A DNA stretch of 13,478 nt, from NCBI GenBank assembly GCA_963693365.1, contig CAVNZM010000079.1:1-13478 (forward strand). The letters are read 5' to 3'. The position numbers and the translations under genes were made by a program. Within the stretch, counting starts at the first letter, position 1; every line of letters starts with the position of its first letter. The notes under the pieces are model-generated. The model did no database searches and was not told the DNA's origin. It saw only the letters and a list, made by a program, of their open reading frames with translations. The stretch is from Amoebidium appalachense. Taxonomy: Eukaryota > Protista > Ichthyosporea. Shown piece after piece: positions 1 to 13,300 of the stretch.

Positions 1-82
1 TTTACAACCATTGCAGGTTCACTTTCGTCCAAGGGGATGTCCCCCTAGAGGCAACACACGTCCCGGAGTAGTTTTTCATAGA
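1..82 (+). repeat. Left arm of long-range inverted repeat (may extend beyond the window start)
   Basis: The reverse complement of 1-82 matches 13220-13300 except for one base in the A/T run (ctatgaaaa[a]ctactccggga...gcaatggttgtaaa). Confidence 0.95.
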
Positions 83-274
83 CTAATTTTTATTTGTATA
101 CACTGACCTTTTCATATTCTTCTAACGGTCCTTCTTCCAAAAGGATCATGTAGTGATACTACATCGGATGACTGGGTTGCTATACTTGGAAGACTACTTC
201 AATGTTCCTTTATTTATAAATATATAAATAAATATTTACAAAAGTGAATTTCATATGTCTTTTATTTGATTTTA

Positions 275-305
<31 letters not shown>

Positions 306-630
306 GATACCTACATATGCAAGAATGATACTGTAACATACGTATACATGTAGGTGCATGGTGTGTGGTGTGTGGGGTATGGAAAGTCGGTTTCTGTAGC
401 AACTCATCAACTCACCAATCAAATCGCGCGCATCCCGACAGTTTGAATAATGAAATTGCCGATGAAGTCATTGCAGTGATTTGATTGGATAGTCGGTGAG
501 TGCAACCCAACTCACTGATGGGAGCGCCTTCACAATTCGCTTTCAGCGCTACACAACTCTCGCGCTATGCACACACACACACAACACACACACACACACA
601 CACACTATTTGTAAGAATAAACACTGATGC

Positions 631-681
<51 letters not shown>

Positions 682-742
682 TGTGGGGGGGGGGGGGGGG
701 GGGGGGGCTGTGGTGTAGGAAAGGATGGTAGGTTCAACTGTA
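83..742 (+). repeat. ~650-bp segmental repeat, copy 1 (AT-rich block + ~230-bp core + CA/TG tracts + G run)
   Basis: Near-identical to 2150-2794 from ctaatttttatttgtatacac to ggtaggttcaactgta. Confidence 0.95.
570..707. repeat. (CA)n - 28-bp spacer - (TG)n - poly-G
   Basis: Seen directly. The spacer ctatttgtaagaataaacactgatgcactg recurs at ~908-937 and ~2670-2698. Confidence 0.95.
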
Positions 743-1189: not shown

Positions 1190-1393
1190 AACATAGTAAC
1201 GCGCATTGGCCGCTCCCATTGCTCCCGTGTTTTTATATTTTGCTGTGCTTTATTGTCGTTGCCTTTTACAACCATGGTTCTAGACCATATGCATGACCAA
1301 GAAAATTAATCACACAACCAATCAGACAATTGACAGCCCAACTGGCTGACAATTATTACGTCAATAGTTCAAAGCAATTGAAACAGAACACAC

Positions 1394-1810
1394 CTCCATC
1401 TCAACGGCAAAGTAGTTGCCAGTAGTGACCGACACCACGACTGGAACTTTATCACGACCCCTGAACATGGCGCGCACAAACTCGTTGTAGTTGCCATACC
1501 CCAACAGCCCAAAAATGGCGCGCCCAGAGATGGTCTCGGTGTTGTCATGCAGAAAGGGGTCCAGAAAGCGCAGCATCTTAGCAACCACATCGTCCCTTAC
1601 AGTACAGTGCATCCTCCCCACATGACTCTTGCCCGGAGCGTGCCCCGGAACATCCTGATTTGTTTGCTTACACCAAGCTCTGGACACAAGATCGAAAGCT
1701 ATCAAATTGACCATATATATGACAAAGAAAAACAAGGTTGCCAAAGATCATTGTAGCAGTGCCCAGCAGCTGCTCAAGCTCGGGGGTGATGGGGGGGGGG
1801 AACCGGCCTT
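1394..1810 (-). pseudogene. Disrupted paralogue of exon 1 of gene A (AntA-like domain fragment)
   Basis: TVRDDVVAKMLRFLDPF...RGRDKVP is 43/54 identical to gene A by my count. 1757-1810 encodes the upstream part (KAG..PITPELEQLLGT), separated by a ~155-bp insertion and a frameshifting C-run. It ends at a GAG|GTGTGT donor (1394/1393) equivalent to that of gene A. No start codon or exon 2 is visible. Confidence 0.85.
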
Positions 1811-2794: not shown

Positions 2795-3275
2795 CAAACA
2801 ATCGTTAGTGCAGCCAATGGGACTGCGGGGTTCGTGTCAAACCTTTGATGATCGATATAATATGGACCATCACGGTGGCTGCTGATCGGCACAGTCTCTG
2901 TAGTTTCGAATCTGCGCGATGCTGTACTGCACGATGACATCTCTTCTCCATTTCATCAGAAGTAATGGAAAATCGTTTGAAGTACGAAAAAAAAAATGGA
3001 GAATTCGACGTCGTCGACTGCTTTACCGTAGCTTATAACGGAATTCGGAGCACGGCAATAAAGACCCGGAAACTGATGCTGCATCGGAATCGTGCTCTGT
3101 TTGAAAAAGAAACCACGGTCTCGGGTGCACGTTAAACATTGGGCTTTTTATTACTTTCTACCTTATAAACATATATACTTATATTTTAAATATAAACATT
3201 AGTATGGATGTAAAAGAATATTATGTTTTTTTTTTTTTTTTTTTTTTTACACGCCTCGAGATAGAACTGAGAAGG

Positions 3276-4247
3276 ATGGGAACAAACGAACAGAGGGAAC
3301 AGGAGACGGTGATGGATGCCGAGAGGGGGCATGTGGCGAATATCGTGGATGTGGCGGAGGTCGTGGACGGGGCAGACAGGGATGGAGGGACGGGGGCAGA
3401 CGGGGAAATGGTCGAGGCGGACGGGGGCGGGGAGACCCAAATGCCTGAGGGACACGGGGAGGATCGTCCGTTGTGTAACGACTGTGATAACGAGGAGATG
3501 GGTGTAAAGGAGACGGAACACGAACAGGAGAGCACAGTGACAGAGGAACGGCGTGCCGCGCAAGAGGATAAACTGAAACGGCTACAAGATATTATCAGCA
3601 GTGCCCGAGGGTTCGAGCGGGCCTACCGCGATGAAATTTATGACAACCCCGTCTACGACGAACGCGGCGTCAACCGCATCCTTGTATTTTATCAGCAGAC
3701 ACTGGAGAGCCTCATCCTACTGGTCGACGGCGTGCGGGATAGCACGGACACGGATATCGTCCGCGCCAAAGGAAAACGGGTTGTCGACGAGATCCAGGGG
3801 CTTCTCGCCAAGGCCGACGCGCAGCACACAGCACCCCAAAAGCGCCCTGCTTCGGACACCCGCGCCGCCGACACCAGAAGTGCTAAGCGCACCAAGAGGA
3901 CGCCCACTCACAGGGAGCGGCTAGTTAGCAAATTCTTCGAGTGGCTCAAGGAATCGGCCCCCTGTGGTGCGGTCTATCTTCTTCGTCACCTCAGGGACCT
4001 GTTCCACAAGAAGGCTAGCAGTGAGAGCAGGACTTTCGCACGAGCGCCTCTGTCTACGGATGAAGTAGCTAGGTTTTTGGGCAAGCAGGTAACTGTGTAT
4101 TTTAGGGCTATAGACAAGATAGAGGTGATGCGCCATAAAAAAGGGGAAGTTTATGCTGTGAAATTCCCTAGGAACCGTTTAGGAAAGCCCGGCTATCCGT
4201 GCCATAAGGCAAGAGGGTACTTTCTCGGGAATCTGGTGTGTGCTTGA
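3276..4247 (+). CDS. Protein with acidic N-terminus, BAG-like domain, basic NLS-like linker and C-terminal winged-helix-like domain
   Basis: Long non-repetitive ORF. 3570-3818 (KLKRLQDI...QQTLESLILLVDGV..DIVRAKGKRVVDEIQGLLAKAD) fits the BAG consensus (L..LLLKLD.I.....VR..RK..V..IQ.LL..LD). The start is uncertain: ATG 3276 is preferred over 3204, which reads through a T-run, and an upstream exon is possible. Confidence 0.75.
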   Translation: MGTNEQREQETVMDAERGHVANIVDVAEVVDGADRDGGTGADGEMVEADGGGETQMPEGHGEDRPLCNDCDNEEMGVKETEHEQESTVTEERRAAQEDKLKRLQDIISSARGFERAYRDEIYDNPVYDERGVNRILVFYQQTLESLILLVDGVRDSTDTDIVRAKGKRVVDEIQGLLAKADAQHTAPQKRPASDTRAADTRSAKRTKRTPTHRERLVSKFFEWLKESAPCGAVYLLRHLRDLFHKKASSESRTFARAPLSTDEVARFLGKQVTVYFRAIDKIEVMRHKKGEVYAVKFPRNRLGKPGYPCHKARGYFLGNLVCA

Positions 4248-4396
4248 TAAGGCCAACGGGCTTGGCGAAGTGAAAACGTGGTTGTAAAAATGCATTAAAA
4301 CACCCCCTTCCGGTCCGGTCCGACCCCTTTGGACCGCAGTCTGGTCCGGTTCGGTCTGAACAGGAGTCCTCGCCCGGCAGAGTCCCCCCCCCCCCC

Positions 4397-4731
4397 CCCG
4401 TGTGTATGTGCTTTTGTGCCCCCATATCCCCCCCCCCGCCCGTGTGTATGTGCTTTTGTGCCCCCATATCCCCCCCCCCTCCCCCCCGCCCGTGTGTATG
4501 TTCTTTTGTGCCCCCATATCCCCCCCCCTCCCCCCCCGCCCGTGTGTATGTGCTTTTGTGCCCCCATATCCCCCCCCTCCCCCCGCCCGTGTGTATGTTC
4601 TTTGTGCCCCCATATCCCCCCCCCCTCCCCCCGCCCGTGTGTATGTTCTTTTGTGCCCCCATATCCCCCCCCTCCCCCCGCCCGTGTGTATGTTCTTTTG
4701 TGCCCCCATATCCCCCCCCCCTCCCCCCGCC

Positions 4732-4732
<1 letters not shown>
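4397..4732. repeat. C-rich minisatellite, 7 copies of ~42-50 bp
   Basis: Unit cccgtgtgtatgt(g/t)cttttgtgcccccatatc(C)n t(C)n g. Confidence 0.95.
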
Positions 4733-5164
<432 letters not shown>

Positions 5165-5261
5165 TATACGGATGATAGCGCTATTATATATTAGAATGGA
5201 AAAGTTGGCACTTTGGAGTTACATTGGGGTTGTGACAGGTGTGTGAGCACCGTAAAGCGGT

Positions 5262-5580: not shown

Positions 5581-7167
5581 ATGGCTTCCACCTACGCCAT
5601 CTACGAGCGCCTCAACATTGCCGGTGCCAAAGAGGCCGGCTTCCCTCCCATCTCTCCCGAGCTCGAGCTCCTGCTGGGCACCGTGGGCGACGACGTGGTG
5701 GCCAAGGTGCTGCGCTTCCTCGACCCGTTCCTGCTGGACAGCACCGAGACCATCTCCGGGCGCGCTATCTTCCGGCTGCTAGGGTATGGCCGCTACGAAG
5801 AGTTTGTGAGAGCCATGTTCAAGGGGCAGAAGGGTGTGCCTGGCTTTGTCCCGGTTGGCAACTACCGTGTTATTGACATAGAGGTATGAATCTCAGAATT
5901 CTTAAGTTTTGAATTAATTCCCGGCACTATGCCGTGAATTCTCTAATTGGCTATGGGGCATCATGCGACGTCATCACTTTTACGGATCAGGGCTGAAAAG
6001 TCATTTCGTCATTTTTGCGTCATCACTTTAGTCTCTACCATAACTCCAAAGTGTTAACGTCAAAACTTTTCAGGTTGAGTTTTGATTGGCGTTGTGACGT
6101 CATCACTTTCACGCTCCCAGAGCGGGAAAGTTTTGATTGGCTTTGTGACGTCATCGCTTAACTTCTGTTTCATGCAGAGCACTGGAGGTCGTCCGGGACA
6201 AGACCATCTGCTGAGTGCAAAGGGCTTCCGCCTTGCCTCGGCCGCCAACCATGGCATCCTGGGCCACGGAGTCCGAGTGTGGGCTGTTGACGTAGCCGAA
6301 GCATTTGCGCGCATGGCCGCCACGAACAAGGAGGAAGCTCTCTCCGCCCTGCACGCCACCCTTGCTGCGGCCGAAGCCCTTGCTGCCGAGACAGCCACCG
6401 AGCGCGACGCAGCCTTCGGCGCCAAGGAGGCCGCGGAGGCCGCCCAGGCCGAGGCACTCGCCACCCTCGCTGCCGCTCTCGCCCGCGTGAAGCTCGAACC
6501 ACTCACCCTCCCGACCCGCATGCCTCTCACAACCGGCGGCACGTACACGGACAACCATAAGTTCAAGCGCCTGACGCGCGCGTTCGCGTATGTGTGCGTG
6601 GACACGCTGTACGGCGAAGGCGTGCGCTGCGCCAGCACGTACACGGGCATGATCATGGCCACCACGGGCGTGTGCTTTGTGTTCCAGTCGGGGGAGATTT
6701 CCAACATCATCGCCACCACCGGGCTGCAGAAGGCCATGAAGGAGCGCATCCGGCTGTGGACCGGCGAGGAGCCCAAGTACTCGACCGACATGACCACGCA
6801 GCAGCTGTACACCTTTGTCTACAACTACACGCGCTGGTACGTCGAGTACTGCAAGGCGCCGGTGCTGCGCCAGTCGACCATCAACAACGCGGACACGGGC
6901 GCTGCCGAGTACGAGGTGCACGTCGAGCTGGCGTCGTGGCTGGAGGCCATCCAGGACAAGTTCCCCGACATCGAGCCGCTGGAGCTCGGGCGCACCGTCA
7001 GCCTCAACGAGCCGCTGGTGGAGCGCGGCGAGCAGCTCAAGGGGCAGACCCAGCTGGACGTGTATGTGCAGCGCGGGCGGCTGGGGCGGAAGCGCAAGGT
7101 CGCCCGCCTGCAGAAGCCCGAGGGCCCCGTTGATGTTGTGGTGATTGCGGACAGTGATAGTGAGTGA
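5581..7167 (+). CDS. Gene A, spliced join(5581..5883,6178..7167), 430 aa: AntA/antirepressor-like N-terminal DNA-binding domain, Ala-rich coil, unknown C-terminal domain, NLS and SIM
   Basis: Donor GAG|GTATGA at 5884, branch-like CTTAAC at ~6157, acceptor ttctgtttcatgcAG at 6177, phase 0. The join gives ISGRAIFRLLGY..YEEFV..NY..IE|STGGRPGQDHLLS..F..G..VR.W, resembling AntA-type domains (SAREL..L...F..W...DY...GGRP..DY.LT...G..VR.YF). GC3 bias is strong. Confidence 0.85.
5884..6177 (+). other. Spliceosomal GT-AG intron of gene A (294 bp), rich in CRE/CCAAT motifs
   Basis: Canonical donor, branch and acceptor. AT-richer than the flanking exons. Removal restores the frame and the domain. Confidence 0.85.
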
Positions 7168-7597: not shown

Positions 7598-8228
7598 CTT
7601 ACCGATGATAGCGCTATTATAAATTAGAATTGAGTTGTGTGTGTGTGTGTGCTTGCTCGGAATTGTGTCAGGCTGTGCAGTGCTAGAGCGCAGCGCCAGC
7701 GCGCCTGCCGGCGGGTGTTCTTTGTTATCAGAGTAGATATGTCATCATATGCGTTGACGTCATTTTGACGTCATTCGCTTACTTAAATAGACTTGGTTGG
7801 CGCTGGGGATGATGGGCCATCTGCATCATGTAGTTCTGCGCTGTACGTGGGAATAACCTGTGCAACATAAGCTCTCAATTGTAATTACAATAAATGCAAA
7901 AAATCTTGAATTGTATTTTTCATGGTGGGTGCATAAGCGTGAGACTTTCCATCATGGGTTCATCAATATGCAAATTGTTCTCTTGGGGCTGAGACTTCAT
8001 CCAATCGGTTTTCGGTAGAATTTGATTGGCCTAACCTGGATTTCCAAATGTTCTCTTGGAAGCCGTTATTTGGTGGGGGGATAGATGCGTAGATGGGTAA
8101 AACACGATTTAATTCAAGCAAAATCGCGAGAGAGAAAATGGATTGCTGCGCCAAAGAGTTCATGGTATATTTGTAAACATTTAGGCAGTCAAGGGCTCCG
8201 AAATGGCTTCAGTCCTTTTGCACTCACT

Positions 8229-8463: not shown

Positions 8464-9548
8464 ATGTACATGTCACAGACACTGCACACCGCGATGGACA
8501 TCGGCGCTCCTGGCGCTGCGCCTGTCTCCCAGCCGGCCGTATTCAGCACCTTCACGTTTCCACCCACCCCACAACCCGACCTGGACATCATACAGAGTAC
8601 CGACTTCATTCCGCTGACGTCCGACGATTTTGCTGCTTTTGACAACCAACTAGGTGACGGCTCCATGCTCCATGCGCCCACCCCGACGACGGCTAAGAGC
8701 CACGGCCAGCACCACGTCTTCGACTTCGACATGGTCTGCGGCGAGACAATCCCCCCCTCTCCGGCGCGTCCTGTTCCCGCACGTCTGCATCTGCAAGCGG
8801 TCTCCTCTCACGCCCCCACGCTGCCACCCACCACAACCACGCCAGCAACAACATGGTTTGGCCGGCTCAGGTCTGCCGAGAACCAGGATTCCGATACGAG
8901 ACAATGGAAGCGCACGCGCGCTAACATCTCAATGACCAAAAAGCCACCTGGTGAAATCAAAGCCCTCGCCACTGCTGGTGATTGGAGGCGCCATCTTGCA
9001 CCCCTGCCTGTTTCACAGATGTTGGGCGAGGCGCTCGACAGACTTAGCCCGTTGTGCCTTGTACCGTTCATCAGCTGCACGCTCCCTTTTGCAGCTAGCA
9101 AAGAGCAGCTCTCCTACCTCGACGCTGGTAGCATCTGTGCGCTTCTCGGCTTCAGGGACATCGATGAGATACGCGATCGTCTCGATCAGGCCAAAATCGC
9201 AAACGCCCGTGATGTACCAGGCACAGAAGCGGTAGGAGGGCCCCCCCCCCCCCCCCCCACACACACACAAGGCTTCCACACACACACACACACACACACA
9301 AGGCTTCCACACACACACACACACACACACACAAGGCTTCCACACACACACACACACACACAAGGCTTCCACACACACACACACACACACACACAAGGCT
9401 TCCACACACACACACACACACACACACAGGGCTTCCACACACACACACACACACACAAGGCTTCCACACACACACACACACACACACACAAGGCTTCCAC
9501 ACACACACACACACACAAGGCTTCCACACACACACACACACACACAGG

Positions 9549-9611
<63 letters not shown>

Positions 9612-10540
9612 TTTTGAAGCTTCCACCGACACTTTATCGACACCCCTACTAAATGGTGGATCCGGGCACCATAGTGGTCGTGGCTACGGTGGCGTTTTGC
9701 GTGGGCATGTTCTTTCTCAGTGTCCTTGACTATCTCTTCCCCGTGTTCTCGGAACCGATTAAGGGGGACCCACCCCCGCCATACTCAATCCATGCTGATA
9801 CTTGGTGATTCCTACAGGGGTCCCCGCACTACTACAAGGAGGGCAACTTCATGCTGGTCTCGCCCGCTGCGTTTCTTCACCTGACCACCCAGGTCTTGTA
9901 CGAGTCCCCCCTGGCCCTCGATTTTCTGGGATGGTTTAACAGCGCCCGCAACAAGGAGCTGCACTTGCACGAAACCCGGCTCTATGAGAAGACCCGCGGC
10001 GCGCCCCCTTCCACCACCCCTCTGGATGCCACCCGCCACATTCGCGCTACCTTTGTCGGTTTCCTGGTGGCCACACTCAGCTCGACATCCGTGCTTGACG
10101 TCCACAGCCTGGTGACCATCCTTGAAAAGGTGGCCAATGTGCAAGTCACTTCACGCTTCAAGACCCGCAACATCTGCGCCCCGCACGCCGAGGCGCTGGT
10201 TTTCAAGGTGCTTGCCCAGCGCATCAATATAGACACGGGCGTTTCGATAGCGTCTGCGCTCGACATCAACACGTTGCACCTCTACACGTTTCTCTCGCGC
10301 GCCCTTGAGGCTCTGGATGTTGACGTACCCCATCCACACGGCGTCCCAGCCAGCAGCACCCACAAGGACCCCCAGCTGCGCGACCTGAGGAAGCTGGGTC
10401 GCTCCCTCGAGAAGGACTTTGCCGGCATACGCCAGTTGCCCCTGGAGCCCAAGTCCTTCTTCTATGCCATGCCGGAGCGCCCGGTCACCCCGGCCGGACA
10501 CGAAGTGTGTGCGTGCTTCAGGATGGATCGGAGTCTTTAG
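8464..10540 (+). CDS. Gene B, spliced join(8464..9231,9818..10540), 496 aa: disordered N-terminus, Bro-N-like domain, C-terminal domain shared with gene A
   Basis: Donor GCG|GTAGGA at 9232, acceptor ttcctacAG at 9817, phase 0, in frame with ORF 9851-10540. The join gives YLDAGSICALLGFRDIDEIRDRLDQ...MLVSPAAFLHL...SPLALDFLGWF, matching the Bro-N pattern (F.A.DVC..LGY.N...I...D...ISESGLY.L...S.P.A..F..WV). The donor is weaker than consensus. Confidence 0.75.
9232..9817 (+). other. Predicted GT-AG intron of gene B (586 bp) containing a CA minisatellite
   Basis: Removal excises the repeat tract and restores the frame. Branch-like GCTGAT at ~9794. Confidence 0.7.
9241..9609. repeat. Poly-C then ~10 units of aggcttcc(AC)n, then pure (CA)n
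   Basis: Seen directly. Confidence 0.95.
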
Positions 10541-10829
10541 GTTGGACGGACATGTACGGATGGATGCGTCGCACGAGTCCTGTGCACACGGGGCAGCGCC
10601 GTGCAAGCTTGCACGATTTGGAGTTGTTAGGGCACTTGTCCTGGGATACATACTTTTTTTTAGCTGGCTTGAGTGCGCTTGTACTGGTGGGTTTGGGCTT
10701 TGCTCCGTTTAGCTTCGGCATCGTAGGTGCAGCCGGTTTGGGCGCGCTTGTACTGGTGGGTTTGGGCTTTGCTGCTTTTAGGTTCGGCATCGTAGGTGCA
10801 GCCGGTTTGGGGTTTTGTGTTGGAGCCAT
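10518..10829 (-). CDS. Gene C: small basic Lys/Pro/Ala-rich protein (103 aa) with C4 cluster and RRIHPY motif
   Basis: gccATGg at 10829, TATATAAA at 10862-10855, an in-frame 69-bp tandem duplication (PKPAAPTMP.L..AKPKPTSTSA x2) and C-x6-C-x5-C-x2-C. An alternative ATG lies at 10847. Confidence 0.6.
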   Translation of the reverse strand: MAPTQNPKPAAPTMPNLKAAKPKPTSTSAPKPAAPTMPKLNGAKPKPTSTSALKPAKKKYVSQDKCPNNSKSCKLARRCPVCTGLVRRIHPYMSVQPKDSDPS

Positions 10830-11311: not shown

Positions 11312-12490
11312 ATGAACGCCCCACTCCCCCACCCACTCCCCCCTCCCCTCCCTTCACCCCCAAAGCCCGTTGAAGGGTGTGAATGCACTCGTTGCACAGA
11401 CCTTCGCGTCTGTGACGGCTCTTCCGACGCGTGTGCCGTCTGCGGTTACCACAACACCCCGCATCTCAAGACGAAATCAAAACACTTCCCCGCCATCACC
11501 CATTTTGTTTGTGGCTGCGACCACTGCCTGACCCTTGCGGCAACAAGTGTTCCCCGTCTGTGTAGTTCGTGCTTCACCTCGCTGTCGACTCACTCTTCTC
11601 CCATGCCCGGCCTCCCCGGCTGCTGCGACACATGCCGTAGCGGCACCCACTGTGCCTTCCGCATCGCCCGTCGCACCCACAACTATATCAACACACAGCG
11701 TCGGCGGGCTTGGAATGCCGTCTACTCCCTGCTGACCACCATACCCGTCCCATGCACGTGCATACCCGACATCCCAGACCCCCTCCCCACCGCCCACCGC
11801 ATGGCCCCGCACAACCCTGCATGTGCCATGTGGCACGTTGGCTTCCCCGCTCCCGTGCCCGAATGTGCCTCCCCCGTCTGTGCATGCACACACTACCGCA
11901 ATGCGGAGGCCTTTCTCGCTCACATGTGTGCGGGTCGCCTGCGCCACCTTGTCACTGACATGTACACCCCCGCCCTCGAATACTGCCCCTTGTGCAGCTG
12001 CCGCCGCCGCCCAGCTTCGCCCGGCACACCCCAGGCCTACGTGGCCGCCGACCTCCCCCTCCGCTTCCATTCCTGTCCTTGTCCACACTGCGTGCACGTC
12101 TTTGCACGCCCTGCCACCGTGCTCGTGTGTGCCGACTGCCACACACTCGTCCTGCAGCATCAGCATGGTGTGGACGGCTGCGCGAGGAGGCTTGTTGGCC
12201 GTAGACGACAGCTGCGACCGGGTTTGGCCCCCCGAAGACTTGTTCCTGCCCCACAAGCCCACACAAACACCCATTTCTCTCCCCAAACCCCACCATGCAC
12301 ATCTCTTCCACCAAGCCCATACCCATCCCCAAGCCCGCTCACACCGCCTGTTAAAGATACTGTATGCAAGAATTTAGAAGTTGAAGATCCCAACTCCCCC
12401 CAGGGTGAGTGGTTGTGGATGCTTTTCCCCTCTGGGTGGCAAAATGTGTGGGTGCCGGCCACCCCGGGCACCCCGCAAAATAAATCGTGA
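11312..12490 (+). CDS. Gene D: Cys/His-rich putative multi-zinc-binding protein (392 aa) with Pro-rich ends
   Basis: Uninterrupted ORF starting aacATG at 11312, with many CxCxxC/CxxC motifs and a Trp-rich tail (GEWLWMLFPSGWQNVWVP). No family recognised. Confidence 0.7.
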   Translation: MNAPLPHPLPPPLPSPPKPVEGCECTRCTDLRVCDGSSDACAVCGYHNTPHLKTKSKHFPAITHFVCGCDHCLTLAATSVPRLCSSCFTSLSTHSSPMPGLPGCCDTCRSGTHCAFRIARRTHNYINTQRRRAWNAVYSLLTTIPVPCTCIPDIPDPLPTAHRMAPHNPACAMWHVGFPAPVPECASPVCACTHYRNAEAFLAHMCAGRLRHLVTDMYTPALEYCPLCSCRRRPASPGTPQAYVAADLPLRFHSCPCPHCVHVFARPATVLVCADCHTLVLQHQHGVDGCARRLVGRRRQLRPGLAPRRLVPAPQAHTNTHFSPQTPPCTSLPPSPYPSPSPLTPPVKDTVCKNLEVEDPNSPQGEWLWMLFPSGWQNVWVPATPGTPQNKS

Positions 12491-13219: not shown

Positions 13220-13300
13220 TCTATGAAAACTACTCCGGGACGTGTGTTGCCTCTAGGGGGACATCCCCTTGGACGAAAGTGAACCTGCAATGGTTGTAAA
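13220..13300 (-). repeat. Right arm of long-range inverted repeat
   Basis: Reverse complement of 1-82. Confidence 0.95.

What the first reader, a model, noticed from the sequence alone, without database searches (positions are those of the whole stretch)
3276..4247. BAG domain fused to a putative winged-helix DNA-binding domain
Seen: a BAG-like three-helix pattern at 3570-3818, a basic linker (KRPA..KRTKRT), then FFEWLKE..VYLLRHLRDLF..LSTDEVARFL.. at 3915-4244, reminiscent of the C-terminal winged helix of D5-type primase-helicases. Known: BAG domains are Hsp70 nucleotide-exchange factors. The Asp, first Arg and Gln positions are kept, but RK has become GK. Inference: the protein may tether Hsp70 to DNA, an architecture I do not know from cellular BAG proteins.
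Basis: partly seen in the sequence, partly recalled or inferred. Interest (0 to 1): 0.7.

Follow-up and report, generated by a model that had tools for sequence, protein, structure and literature searches.

The report
Worn host BAG domain in repeat
A single-reading-frame gene in repeat-rich protist DNA joins a real but damaged copy of a chaperone-helper (BAG) domain to an unidentified basic domain; it has changed two of four Hsp70-contact residues and its variants show no sign of purifying selection, so it is likely a captured, decaying gene of selfish DNA rather than a working Hsp70-to-DNA tether.

Summary
The 323-codon ORF (3276-4247) is real, and an independent run holds it in one contig. 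The BAG domain is genuine. Its only relatives among 1.84 billion proteins are two Amoebidium parasiticum BAG proteins (37-39% identical), which pass Pfam's BAG cut-off. The C-terminal domain has a coding signature and a low-confidence helix-helix-helix-strand-strand prediction, but no significant sequence or structure match, so the winged helix is neither shown nor excluded. Among sequence variants only 4 of 32 changes are synonymous (dN/dS about 2.4, CI 0.8-9). A neighbouring paralog pair shows clear purifying selection (17 synonymous of 23). All neighbours tested are orphan ORFs set among microsatellites and nested repeats. Best reading: a host BAG domain captured into a gene of an integrated selfish element, now likely Hsp70-impaired and drifting. 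Tethering Hsp70 to DNA is already known for human BAG-1M. Interest is modest.

The parts
3276..4247 (+). Single uninterrupted ORF, 323 aa (acidic N-terminus, BAG, basic linker, orphan basic domain). The start at ATG 3276 is inferred; an in-frame ATG at 3204 runs through a T23 tract.
   Evidence: one contig of run X4 spans it
3276..3545 (+). Acidic, probably disordered N-terminal region (28 D/E vs 5 K/R in residues 1-91); not homologous to the N-termini of the Amoebidium BAG proteins
3546..3821 (+). Degenerate BAG domain (residues 91-182). Hsp70-contact positions: Q141 (=BAG1 E212, changed; nt 3696-3698), D151 (=D222, kept), G166 (=R237, changed; nt 3771-3773), K167 (=K238, kept), Q174 (=Q245, kept)
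   Evidence: three long helices in the model with BAG structures among the best but non-significant fold matches
3831..3914 (+). Basic linker, possible nuclear localisation signal (inferred from composition only)
3915..4244 (+). Orphan basic domain (22 K/R vs 10 D/E); predicted helix-helix-helix-strand-strand at low confidence; candidate winged helix, unproven
   Evidence: no significant match
4092..4200 (+). Patch where a second version in runs X3, X9 and X16 differs at 15 of 109 bases (13 non-synonymous, 2 synonymous)
3138..3260 (+). Upstream region: reverse CCAAT (3138), TATAAA (3164, 3191), T23 tract (3226-3248) and an AG at 3259. Possible promoter with a 5' intron acceptor (inferred). Structurally variable between runs at 3132 and 3173.
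4384..4732 (.). About 48-bp minisatellite (7.4 copies) directly downstream, followed by CA microsatellites

Best explanation
The gene joins a host-type BAG domain with two of its four canonical Hsp70 contacts changed to an orphan basic domain, and is likely a gene of integrated selfish DNA (a giant-repeat or virus-derived region) in an Amoebidium-like protist that is now drifting without constraint. Steps: (1) shown: the BAG is homologous to ichthyosporean BAG proteins and only the BAG proper was taken; (2) inferred: it was captured by a mobile element and fused to a basic, probably DNA-binding domain, where it would once have recruited or modulated Hsp70 at the element's DNA or protein complexes; (3) shown: the E212 and R237 positions are changed in every laid version; inferred: Hsp70 nucleotide exchange is weak or lost; (4) shown: variants carry no excess of synonymous changes; inferred: present copies are silent or functionless passengers.
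For: Origin: only 2 hits at E<=0.001 among 1,835,955,588 representatives, both A. parasiticum BAG proteins, matching the BAG only. They keep an acid at the E212 site and R-K at R237/K238 and are 53% identical to each other vs 37-38% to this domain.

Contacts: no variant row touches nt 3696-3698 or 3771-3773 although both haplotypes of 3677-3787 were laid.

Selection: 4 of 32 well-supported in-ORF variants are synonymous against 23-28% expected if neutral. P(<=4 of 32) is 6e-4 if dN/dS were 0.5 and 5e-9 if 0.2. Control: the paralogous gene pair 5581-5889(+) and 1361-1744(-) has 17 synonymous of 23 single-change codons, P 2e-6.

Context: two or more versions occur within single runs, and fragments of the gene are joined to other DNA in X16 and X19. 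The 6 neighbouring ORFs tested have no curated hit in the Pfam, PHROGs or NCBIfam scans run on them. The window has nested direct and inverted repeats and 9.7% CA/TG runs. Amoebidium is reported to carry methylation-silenced viral insertions and tandem clusters of intron-poor repeated genes (PMC11244446, sections 6, 7).
Against: - The frame is open in all laid versions: no nonsense change among 39 in-ORF rows, and the only indel is in-frame. This is weak, since P(no stop in 32 neutral changes) is 0.37.
- dN/dS measured on polymorphisms or very recent copies is inflated, and most variants are of that kind. The contigs are unphased, and alleles cannot be told from paralogs.
- The point estimate above 1 (2.4, CI 0.83-9.4) also fits diversifying selection on a working gene.
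- No element hallmark (transposase, recombinase, capsid, polymerase) was identified in the window, and no whole genome was available, so the element and the host are inferred.
- A fungal BAG lacking the E212 residue still bound some Hsp70s in two-hybrid tests (PMC6467101, passage), R237A mutants may keep residual binding (PMC3891853), and K165/K167/R168 could partly compensate.
Confidence: 0.5

Rival explanations
1. A working, fast-evolving element protein: the basic domain binds DNA and the BAG bundle has been repurposed as an Hsp70-independent scaffold or as a decoy for partners of host BAG, under diversifying selection from host-element conflict.
For: Open frame in all versions with one in-frame deletion only; dN/dS point estimate 2.4 overall and 3.3 in the C-terminal domain; coding signature in all segments (z 4.4, 4.2 and 2.4); promoter-like motifs upstream.
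Against: No CI excludes 1. Several changes look disruptive (W223R, L149Q, R154W), as drift would give.
Confidence: 0.2
2. One reading: an active BAG co-chaperone fused to an RFX/D5-type winged helix that tethers Hsp70 to DNA.
For: Real BAG with D151, R163, K167 and Q174 kept. The C-terminal domain is basic, amphipathic (24 of 1000 shuffles reach its score) and predicted as three helices followed by strands in both models. A weak HTH_17 match covers LSTDEVARFLG (E 0.19, 12.5 vs 27 bits, on one of two post-hoc fragments). The top VIA row is a Crp/Fnr regulator (Z 3.4, not significant). BAG-1M shows that such tethering can work (PMC2672009).
Against: R237 and E212 positions changed; no purifying selection. 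No Pox_D5 or RFX hit in Pfam, where the P4 alpha control scores 63.9 bits on Pox_D5. BLASTP against the P4 alpha C-terminus gives E 0.42. These negatives do not exclude a remote winged helix.
Confidence: 0.15
3. An ordinary host gene: a lineage-specific, diverged BAG paralog, possibly the last exon of a longer spliced gene, that happens to lie in repeat-rich DNA.
For: Closest relatives are host proteins. A T tract and AG upstream of the ATG look like a splice acceptor. Run X4 shows a single version only.
Against: 972 bases without an apparent intron in a lineage reported as intron-rich (7.2 exons per gene, PMC11244446 section 7, if the host is Amoebidium); no relative with the same C-terminal domain was found; several versions and scattered fragments; no purifying selection.
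Confidence: 0.1
4. The C-terminal part is not a domain at all but read-through of a captured BAG fragment into unrelated DNA.
For: No homologue found in any search; GC3 falls from about 0.7 to 0.47-0.52 in residues 271-323; the coding score of 4089-4244 is not significant (75 of 1000 shuffles).
Against: 110 open codons (P 0.003-0.009); coding signature for the whole domain (5 of 1000 shuffles) and amphipathic helices (24 of 1000); no other frame explains the variants (best 6 synonymous of 15).
Confidence: 0.05

Closest known systems
Amoebidium parasiticum BAG proteins P0002 and P0003 (EukProt EP00123)
   Same: BAG domain 37-39% identical over 85-94 residues, sharing the PV.DERG.V loop
   Different: They end just after the BAG, have unrelated N-termini (P0003 has repeats that resemble IQ motifs, by recall), and keep the acid and R-K Hsp70 contacts; this protein has Q141/G166 and an extra basic domain
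Human BAG1 (BAG-1M/Hap46, BAG-1L) and BAG4/SODD
   Same: Same BAG fold and register; BAG-1M binds DNA and Hsc70 at once (PMC2672009, passages)
   Different: BAG-1M binds DNA non-specifically through a short N-terminal basic motif, not a folded C-terminal domain, and keeps all four contacts
Host domains carried by Amoebidium giant-virus insertions (KDM4-like JmjC) and Plavaka-associated giant repeats (PMC11244446)
   Same: Host-derived domain, altered architecture, intron-poor genes in repeated DNA
   Different: No BAG is mentioned in that paper's text or 2 held supplements; no viral or Plavaka hallmark gene was identified in this window
BAG domain-containing protein of Fadolivirus (PMC8490762, passage)
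   Same: Precedent for a BAG domain in a giant-virus genome
   Different: Not retrieved as a relative in any search here; its architecture was not examined
RFX / D5-helicase C-terminal / phage P4 alpha winged helix (Pfam Pox_D5)
   Same: Size, basic charge and predicted helix-helix-helix-strand-strand order; a resemblance of the C-terminal RG-Y motif is recalled, not tested
   Different: No detectable sequence similarity; no helicase or primase in the ORF

Membership tests
BAG domain (PF02179) | Sequence homology to the family | tested here: met
   Direct score below cut-off (15.7-17.7 vs 23.4), but transitive: E 1.4e-5 and 2.6e-4 to two proteins that pass the cut-off; joint profile hits BAG4 and BAG1
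BAG domain (PF02179) | Antiparallel three-helix bundle | tested here: inconclusive
   Three long helices at pLDDT 45-58; AtBAG1 is Foldseek's first row at E 0.26; VIA Z 10.5, rmsd 2.1-2.3, tied with unrelated bundles
BAG domain (PF02179) | Four Hsp70 contacts E212, D222, R237, Q245 (PMC6013550, PMC6467101, passages) | tested here: not met
   2 of 4 kept (D151, Q174); Q141 and G166 replace E and R
BAG domain (PF02179) | Binds the Hsp70 ATPase domain and speeds nucleotide exchange | not tested
   No host Hsp70 sequence was in hand; no co-fold was run
RFX / D5 C-terminal winged helix | Profile match to Pox_D5 or RFX models | tested here: not met
   0 such families at E<=1 and E<=10, while the P4 alpha control gives Pox_D5 E 1.9e-17; HMMER's filters hide remote matches
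RFX / D5 C-terminal winged helix | Winged-helix fold | tested here: inconclusive
   Single-sequence models, pLDDT 40; best Z 3.4; no Foldseek match at E<=0.001 in viral structures
RFX / D5 C-terminal winged helix | Binds DNA | not testable with these tools
   Only composition (net basic)
Amoebidium giant repeats / endogenous viral elements | Hallmark genes (Plavaka transposase, tyrosine recombinase, capsid, polymerase B) nearby | tested here: inconclusive
   None among the window ORFs scanned; flanks beyond the 13.5-kb window are not available
Amoebidium giant repeats / endogenous viral elements | Hypermethylated and silent | not testable with these tools
   No methylation data

The most novel reading that the evidence does not exclude
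A selfish element of an animal-related protist has built a sequence-specific DNA-binding protein (a new winged-helix-like family) with a captured BAG arm that still engages host Hsp70 through a rewired surface, steering the chaperone to the element's own DNA, and is diversifying under host-element conflict.
Probability: 0.15. Interest if true: 0.7.

Novelty: new variant of a known kind. Interest (0 to 1): 0.3.

Why it matters
On the best reading it is one more case of a host regulatory domain captured by selfish DNA in an ichthyosporean, here a chaperone co-factor rather than a chromatin enzyme, caught after loss of its main binding residues. That widens the list of captured functions but changes little. 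If the protein were active, it would be a BAG joined to a folded DNA-binding domain, which I found in no database hit or paper searched, and a way for a mobile element to place Hsp70 on its DNA.

Tried and rejected
Homologue searches:
- Whole protein: 0 of 2684 candidates at E<=0.01, lengths 177-566 only.
- C-terminal domain in longer proteins: 0 of 79 at E<=10. Shorter proteins were not searched.
- ESM Atlas: no usable hit for residues 90-323; only unnamed clusters at 0.77-0.80 for residues 210-323, a level shuffled sequences often reach.
- IMG/VR: nothing for the C-terminal domain, the BAG alignment, two neighbours or the three-gene alignment.
- JGI metagenomes: nothing for the C-terminal domain. 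The 2 loci for the BAG (L082, L083) are short chance matches in unrelated bacterial-type genes.
- Phage tblastn: 3 weak rows, E 0.6-6.
- PDB sequences: 0 for the BAG alone; 7 chance rows at E>1 for the C-terminal domain; 0 for the neighbour alignment.
- Neighbour 6310-7164: 0 of 8000 candidates.

Winged-helix profile: an attempt to build a D5/P4-type profile failed because the 80 loci returned were 92-100% identical to P4 alpha and the phage collection gave 4 records.

Other checks:
- The C-terminal domain does not match the ORF at 9851 (E 2.5).
- An alternative coding frame for the 4092-4200 patch was considered (9 of 15 changes at codon position 1, P 0.03) and rejected: no frame is both open and enriched for synonymous changes.
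- Rfam: 0 matches.
- Expression: no RNA holder listed, which is no evidence either way.
- No Hsp70 co-fold was run: no host Hsp70 was in hand, and this textbook pair tends to pass by likeness to solved structures.

Literature and earlier findings:
- BAG domain + giant virus: 1 paper.
- BAG domain + DNA-binding domain + winged helix: 2 papers, listing only, neither on such a fusion by title or abstract start.
- Amoebidium + BAG + chaperone: 0. BAG-1 + binds DNA + Hsp70 + basic: 0.
- Earlier findings of this scan: none on this locus or sequence; 8 unrelated ones.

Full report
OBSERVATION. The ORF at 3276-4247 (+) encodes 323 residues: an acidic N-terminus (residues 1-91, 28 D/E), a helical middle (92-185), a basic linker (186-213, 9 K/R) and a basic C-terminal domain (214-323, 22 K/R vs 10 D/E). 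An open frame of this length has probability about 1e-6 at this composition. Twenty of 24 listed public runs hold the stretch or part of it, under four organism labels and four studies. Run X4 carries 3255-4330 in a single contig with 5 differences and no gap, and X1 carries 3259-4380 in one piece. One of these could be the window's own source, but two runs under different labels agree, so the fusion is real DNA.

THE BAG DOMAIN IS REAL. Pfam BAG scores 15.7 bits on the whole protein and 17.7 on the segment, below the 23.4 cut-off. A phmmer search of 1,835,955,588 representatives with residues 92-323 returned 2 proteins at E<=0.001 (1.4e-5, 2.6e-4), both matching the BAG part only. Both come from Amoebidium parasiticum and both pass the Pfam BAG cut-off. 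Homology spans residues 91-182 and nothing else. A profile of the three sequences finds BAG4/SODD (E 0.005, 0.007) and BAG1/BAG5 structures in 7 of its 9 PDB rows. The single-sequence model has three long helices at pLDDT 45-58. BAG structures lead the Foldseek list without significance (E 0.26) and tie with other three-helix bundles in VIA (Z 10.5).

IT IS DEGENERATE. Human BAG1 binds Hsc70 through E212, D222, R237 and Q245 (PMC6013550 and PMC6467101, passages). The register was carried from solved BAG1 to P0003 and on to the window. The positions here are Q141, D151, G166 and Q174. R237A is the mutant used as Hsp70-binding-defective BAG-1M, with possible residual binding (PMC3891853, passages). 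Against over-reading: a fungal BAG without E212 still bound two Hsp70s in two-hybrid tests, and K165, K167 and R168 flank the lost Arg. No variant row touches either changed codon, although two versions of 3677-3787 were laid.

THE C-TERMINAL DOMAIN IS UNIDENTIFIED. It looks like protein: 110 open codons (P 0.003-0.009), a codon signature like the window's other ORFs (5 of 1000 stop-free shuffles reach it) and amphipathic helices (24 of 1000 shuffles). Both AlphaFold runs give three helices followed by short strands, the order of a winged helix, but at pLDDT 20-50, and the fold searches are uninformative (best Z 3.4; no E<=0.001). No sequence library gave a significant match. Pfam Pox_D5 detects the P4 alpha control at 63.9 bits but not this domain; the only hint is HTH_17 at E 0.19 on one of two fragments chosen after the fact. 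A resemblance to RFX/D5 wing motifs is my recall and comes from no call. The winged helix is plausible, neither shown nor excluded.

SELECTION. One search listed 40 variant rows from 4 runs: 1 outside the ORF, 7 low-depth rows that I set aside (1 synonymous, 6 not) and 32 counted. Of the 32, 4 are synonymous (1 of 3 N-terminal, 1 of 8 BAG, 2 of 21 C-terminal) against 23-28% expected under neutrality. P(<=4) is 0.03-0.12 under neutrality, 6e-4 for dN/dS 0.5 and 5e-9 for 0.2; the estimate is 2.4 (CI 0.83-9.4). A 109-base patch (4092-4200) differs at 15 sites in a second version, 13 non-synonymous. That patch is about as diverged as the control pair (14% vs 18%). The control, two paralogous neighbours in the window (5581-5889 + and 1361-1744 -), has 17 synonymous of 23 single-change codons and 26 of 44 differences at third positions (P 2e-6), so the method does detect constraint here. 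Caveats: contigs are unphased; changes sharing a codon were scored singly; one row (3466) is a difference of the window from all 4 runs; alleles and paralogs cannot be separated; polymorphism inflates dN/dS. No stop or frameshift appeared (one in-frame 3-base deletion), which neutrality allows (P 0.37).

CONTEXT. The window is eukaryotic-type DNA with 9.7% CA/TG microsatellite, a minisatellite right after the gene and nested direct and inverted repeats. The six neighbouring ORFs tested have no curated family hit. Three of them share a short motif that I recall as Bro-N/MSV199-like, unconfirmed by any library. Several are preceded by CCAAT, CRE-like and TATA motifs. Runs X3, X9, X10 and X16 each hold two or more versions of parts of the gene, X4 only one, and in X16 and X19 pieces of it are joined to other DNA. 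No whole genome was available. The host is inferred to be an Amoebidium-like ichthyosporean from the only homologues. Amoebidium appalachense is reported to carry methylation-silenced giant-virus and adintovirus insertions and tandem clusters of repeated intron-poor genes, with captured host JmjC domains (PMC11244446; abstract, sections 6 and 7, passages of 8, and a search of its 2 held supplements; no mention of BAG). Supplementary tables not held as text could list this gene.

MECHANISM. Most likely (0.5): a mobile or virus-derived element captured the host BAG, fused it to a basic, probably DNA-binding domain, and the present copies have lost most Hsp70 binding and drift. Shown: BAG homology, changed contacts, lack of synonymous excess, repeat context. 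Inferred: the element, the host, the former function, loss of binding and silence.

COMPARISON AND NOVELTY. A BAG protein that holds DNA and Hsc70 together is known: BAG-1M does so through a basic motif (PMC2672009, passages). A BAG gene is reported in Fadolivirus (PMC8490762, passage). I found no protein with this two-domain arrangement and no paper on one in the searches made (the library lacks most subscription journals). It is a new variant of a known kind, host-domain capture by selfish DNA, with the exciting part unsupported. Interest 0.3.

Noticed in passing
window 5581-5889 (+), 1361-1744 (-), 8953-9240 (+): Three related orphan genes sharing an I..RAI..LLGY..Y.E motif (recalled as Bro-N/MSV199-like, unconfirmed); the first two are under clear purifying selection
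   Followed up: partly
window 6310-7167 (+): Orphan ORF of 285 aa with strong coding bias (GC3 0.82 over the 6082-7167 frame), an alanine-rich N-terminal helix and a basic C-terminus; no relatives found
   Followed up: partly
window 1-82 and 13220-13300: 82-bp inverted repeat (98.8%) at the two ends of the window; could be part of longer terminal inverted repeats of an element
   Followed up: no
window 83-742, 1810-2794: 660-bp direct repeat (95%) overlapping an 850-bp imperfect palindrome (1810-2655), rich in CCAAT motifs
   Followed up: no
window 5171-5186 and 7604-7619: Identical motif GATGATAGCGCTATTA with a palindromic core, each after a CA run; the same motif abuts a truncated copy of the BAG gene at 3619 in run X16, so it may mark an element end or recombination site
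   Followed up: partly
window 11312-12490 (+): Cys/His-rich orphan ORF with many CxxC pairs, a possible multi-zinc-finger protein; no Pfam or NCBIfam hit
   Followed up: partly
window 9851-10540 (+): 229-aa orphan ORF (GC3 0.78); only a sub-threshold YonT match (17 vs 45 bits), probably chance
   Followed up: partly
window 10653-10829 (-): Short Lys/Pro/Ala-rich ORF built on a 69-bp tandem duplication (10675-10811), histone-H1-like in composition
   Followed up: no
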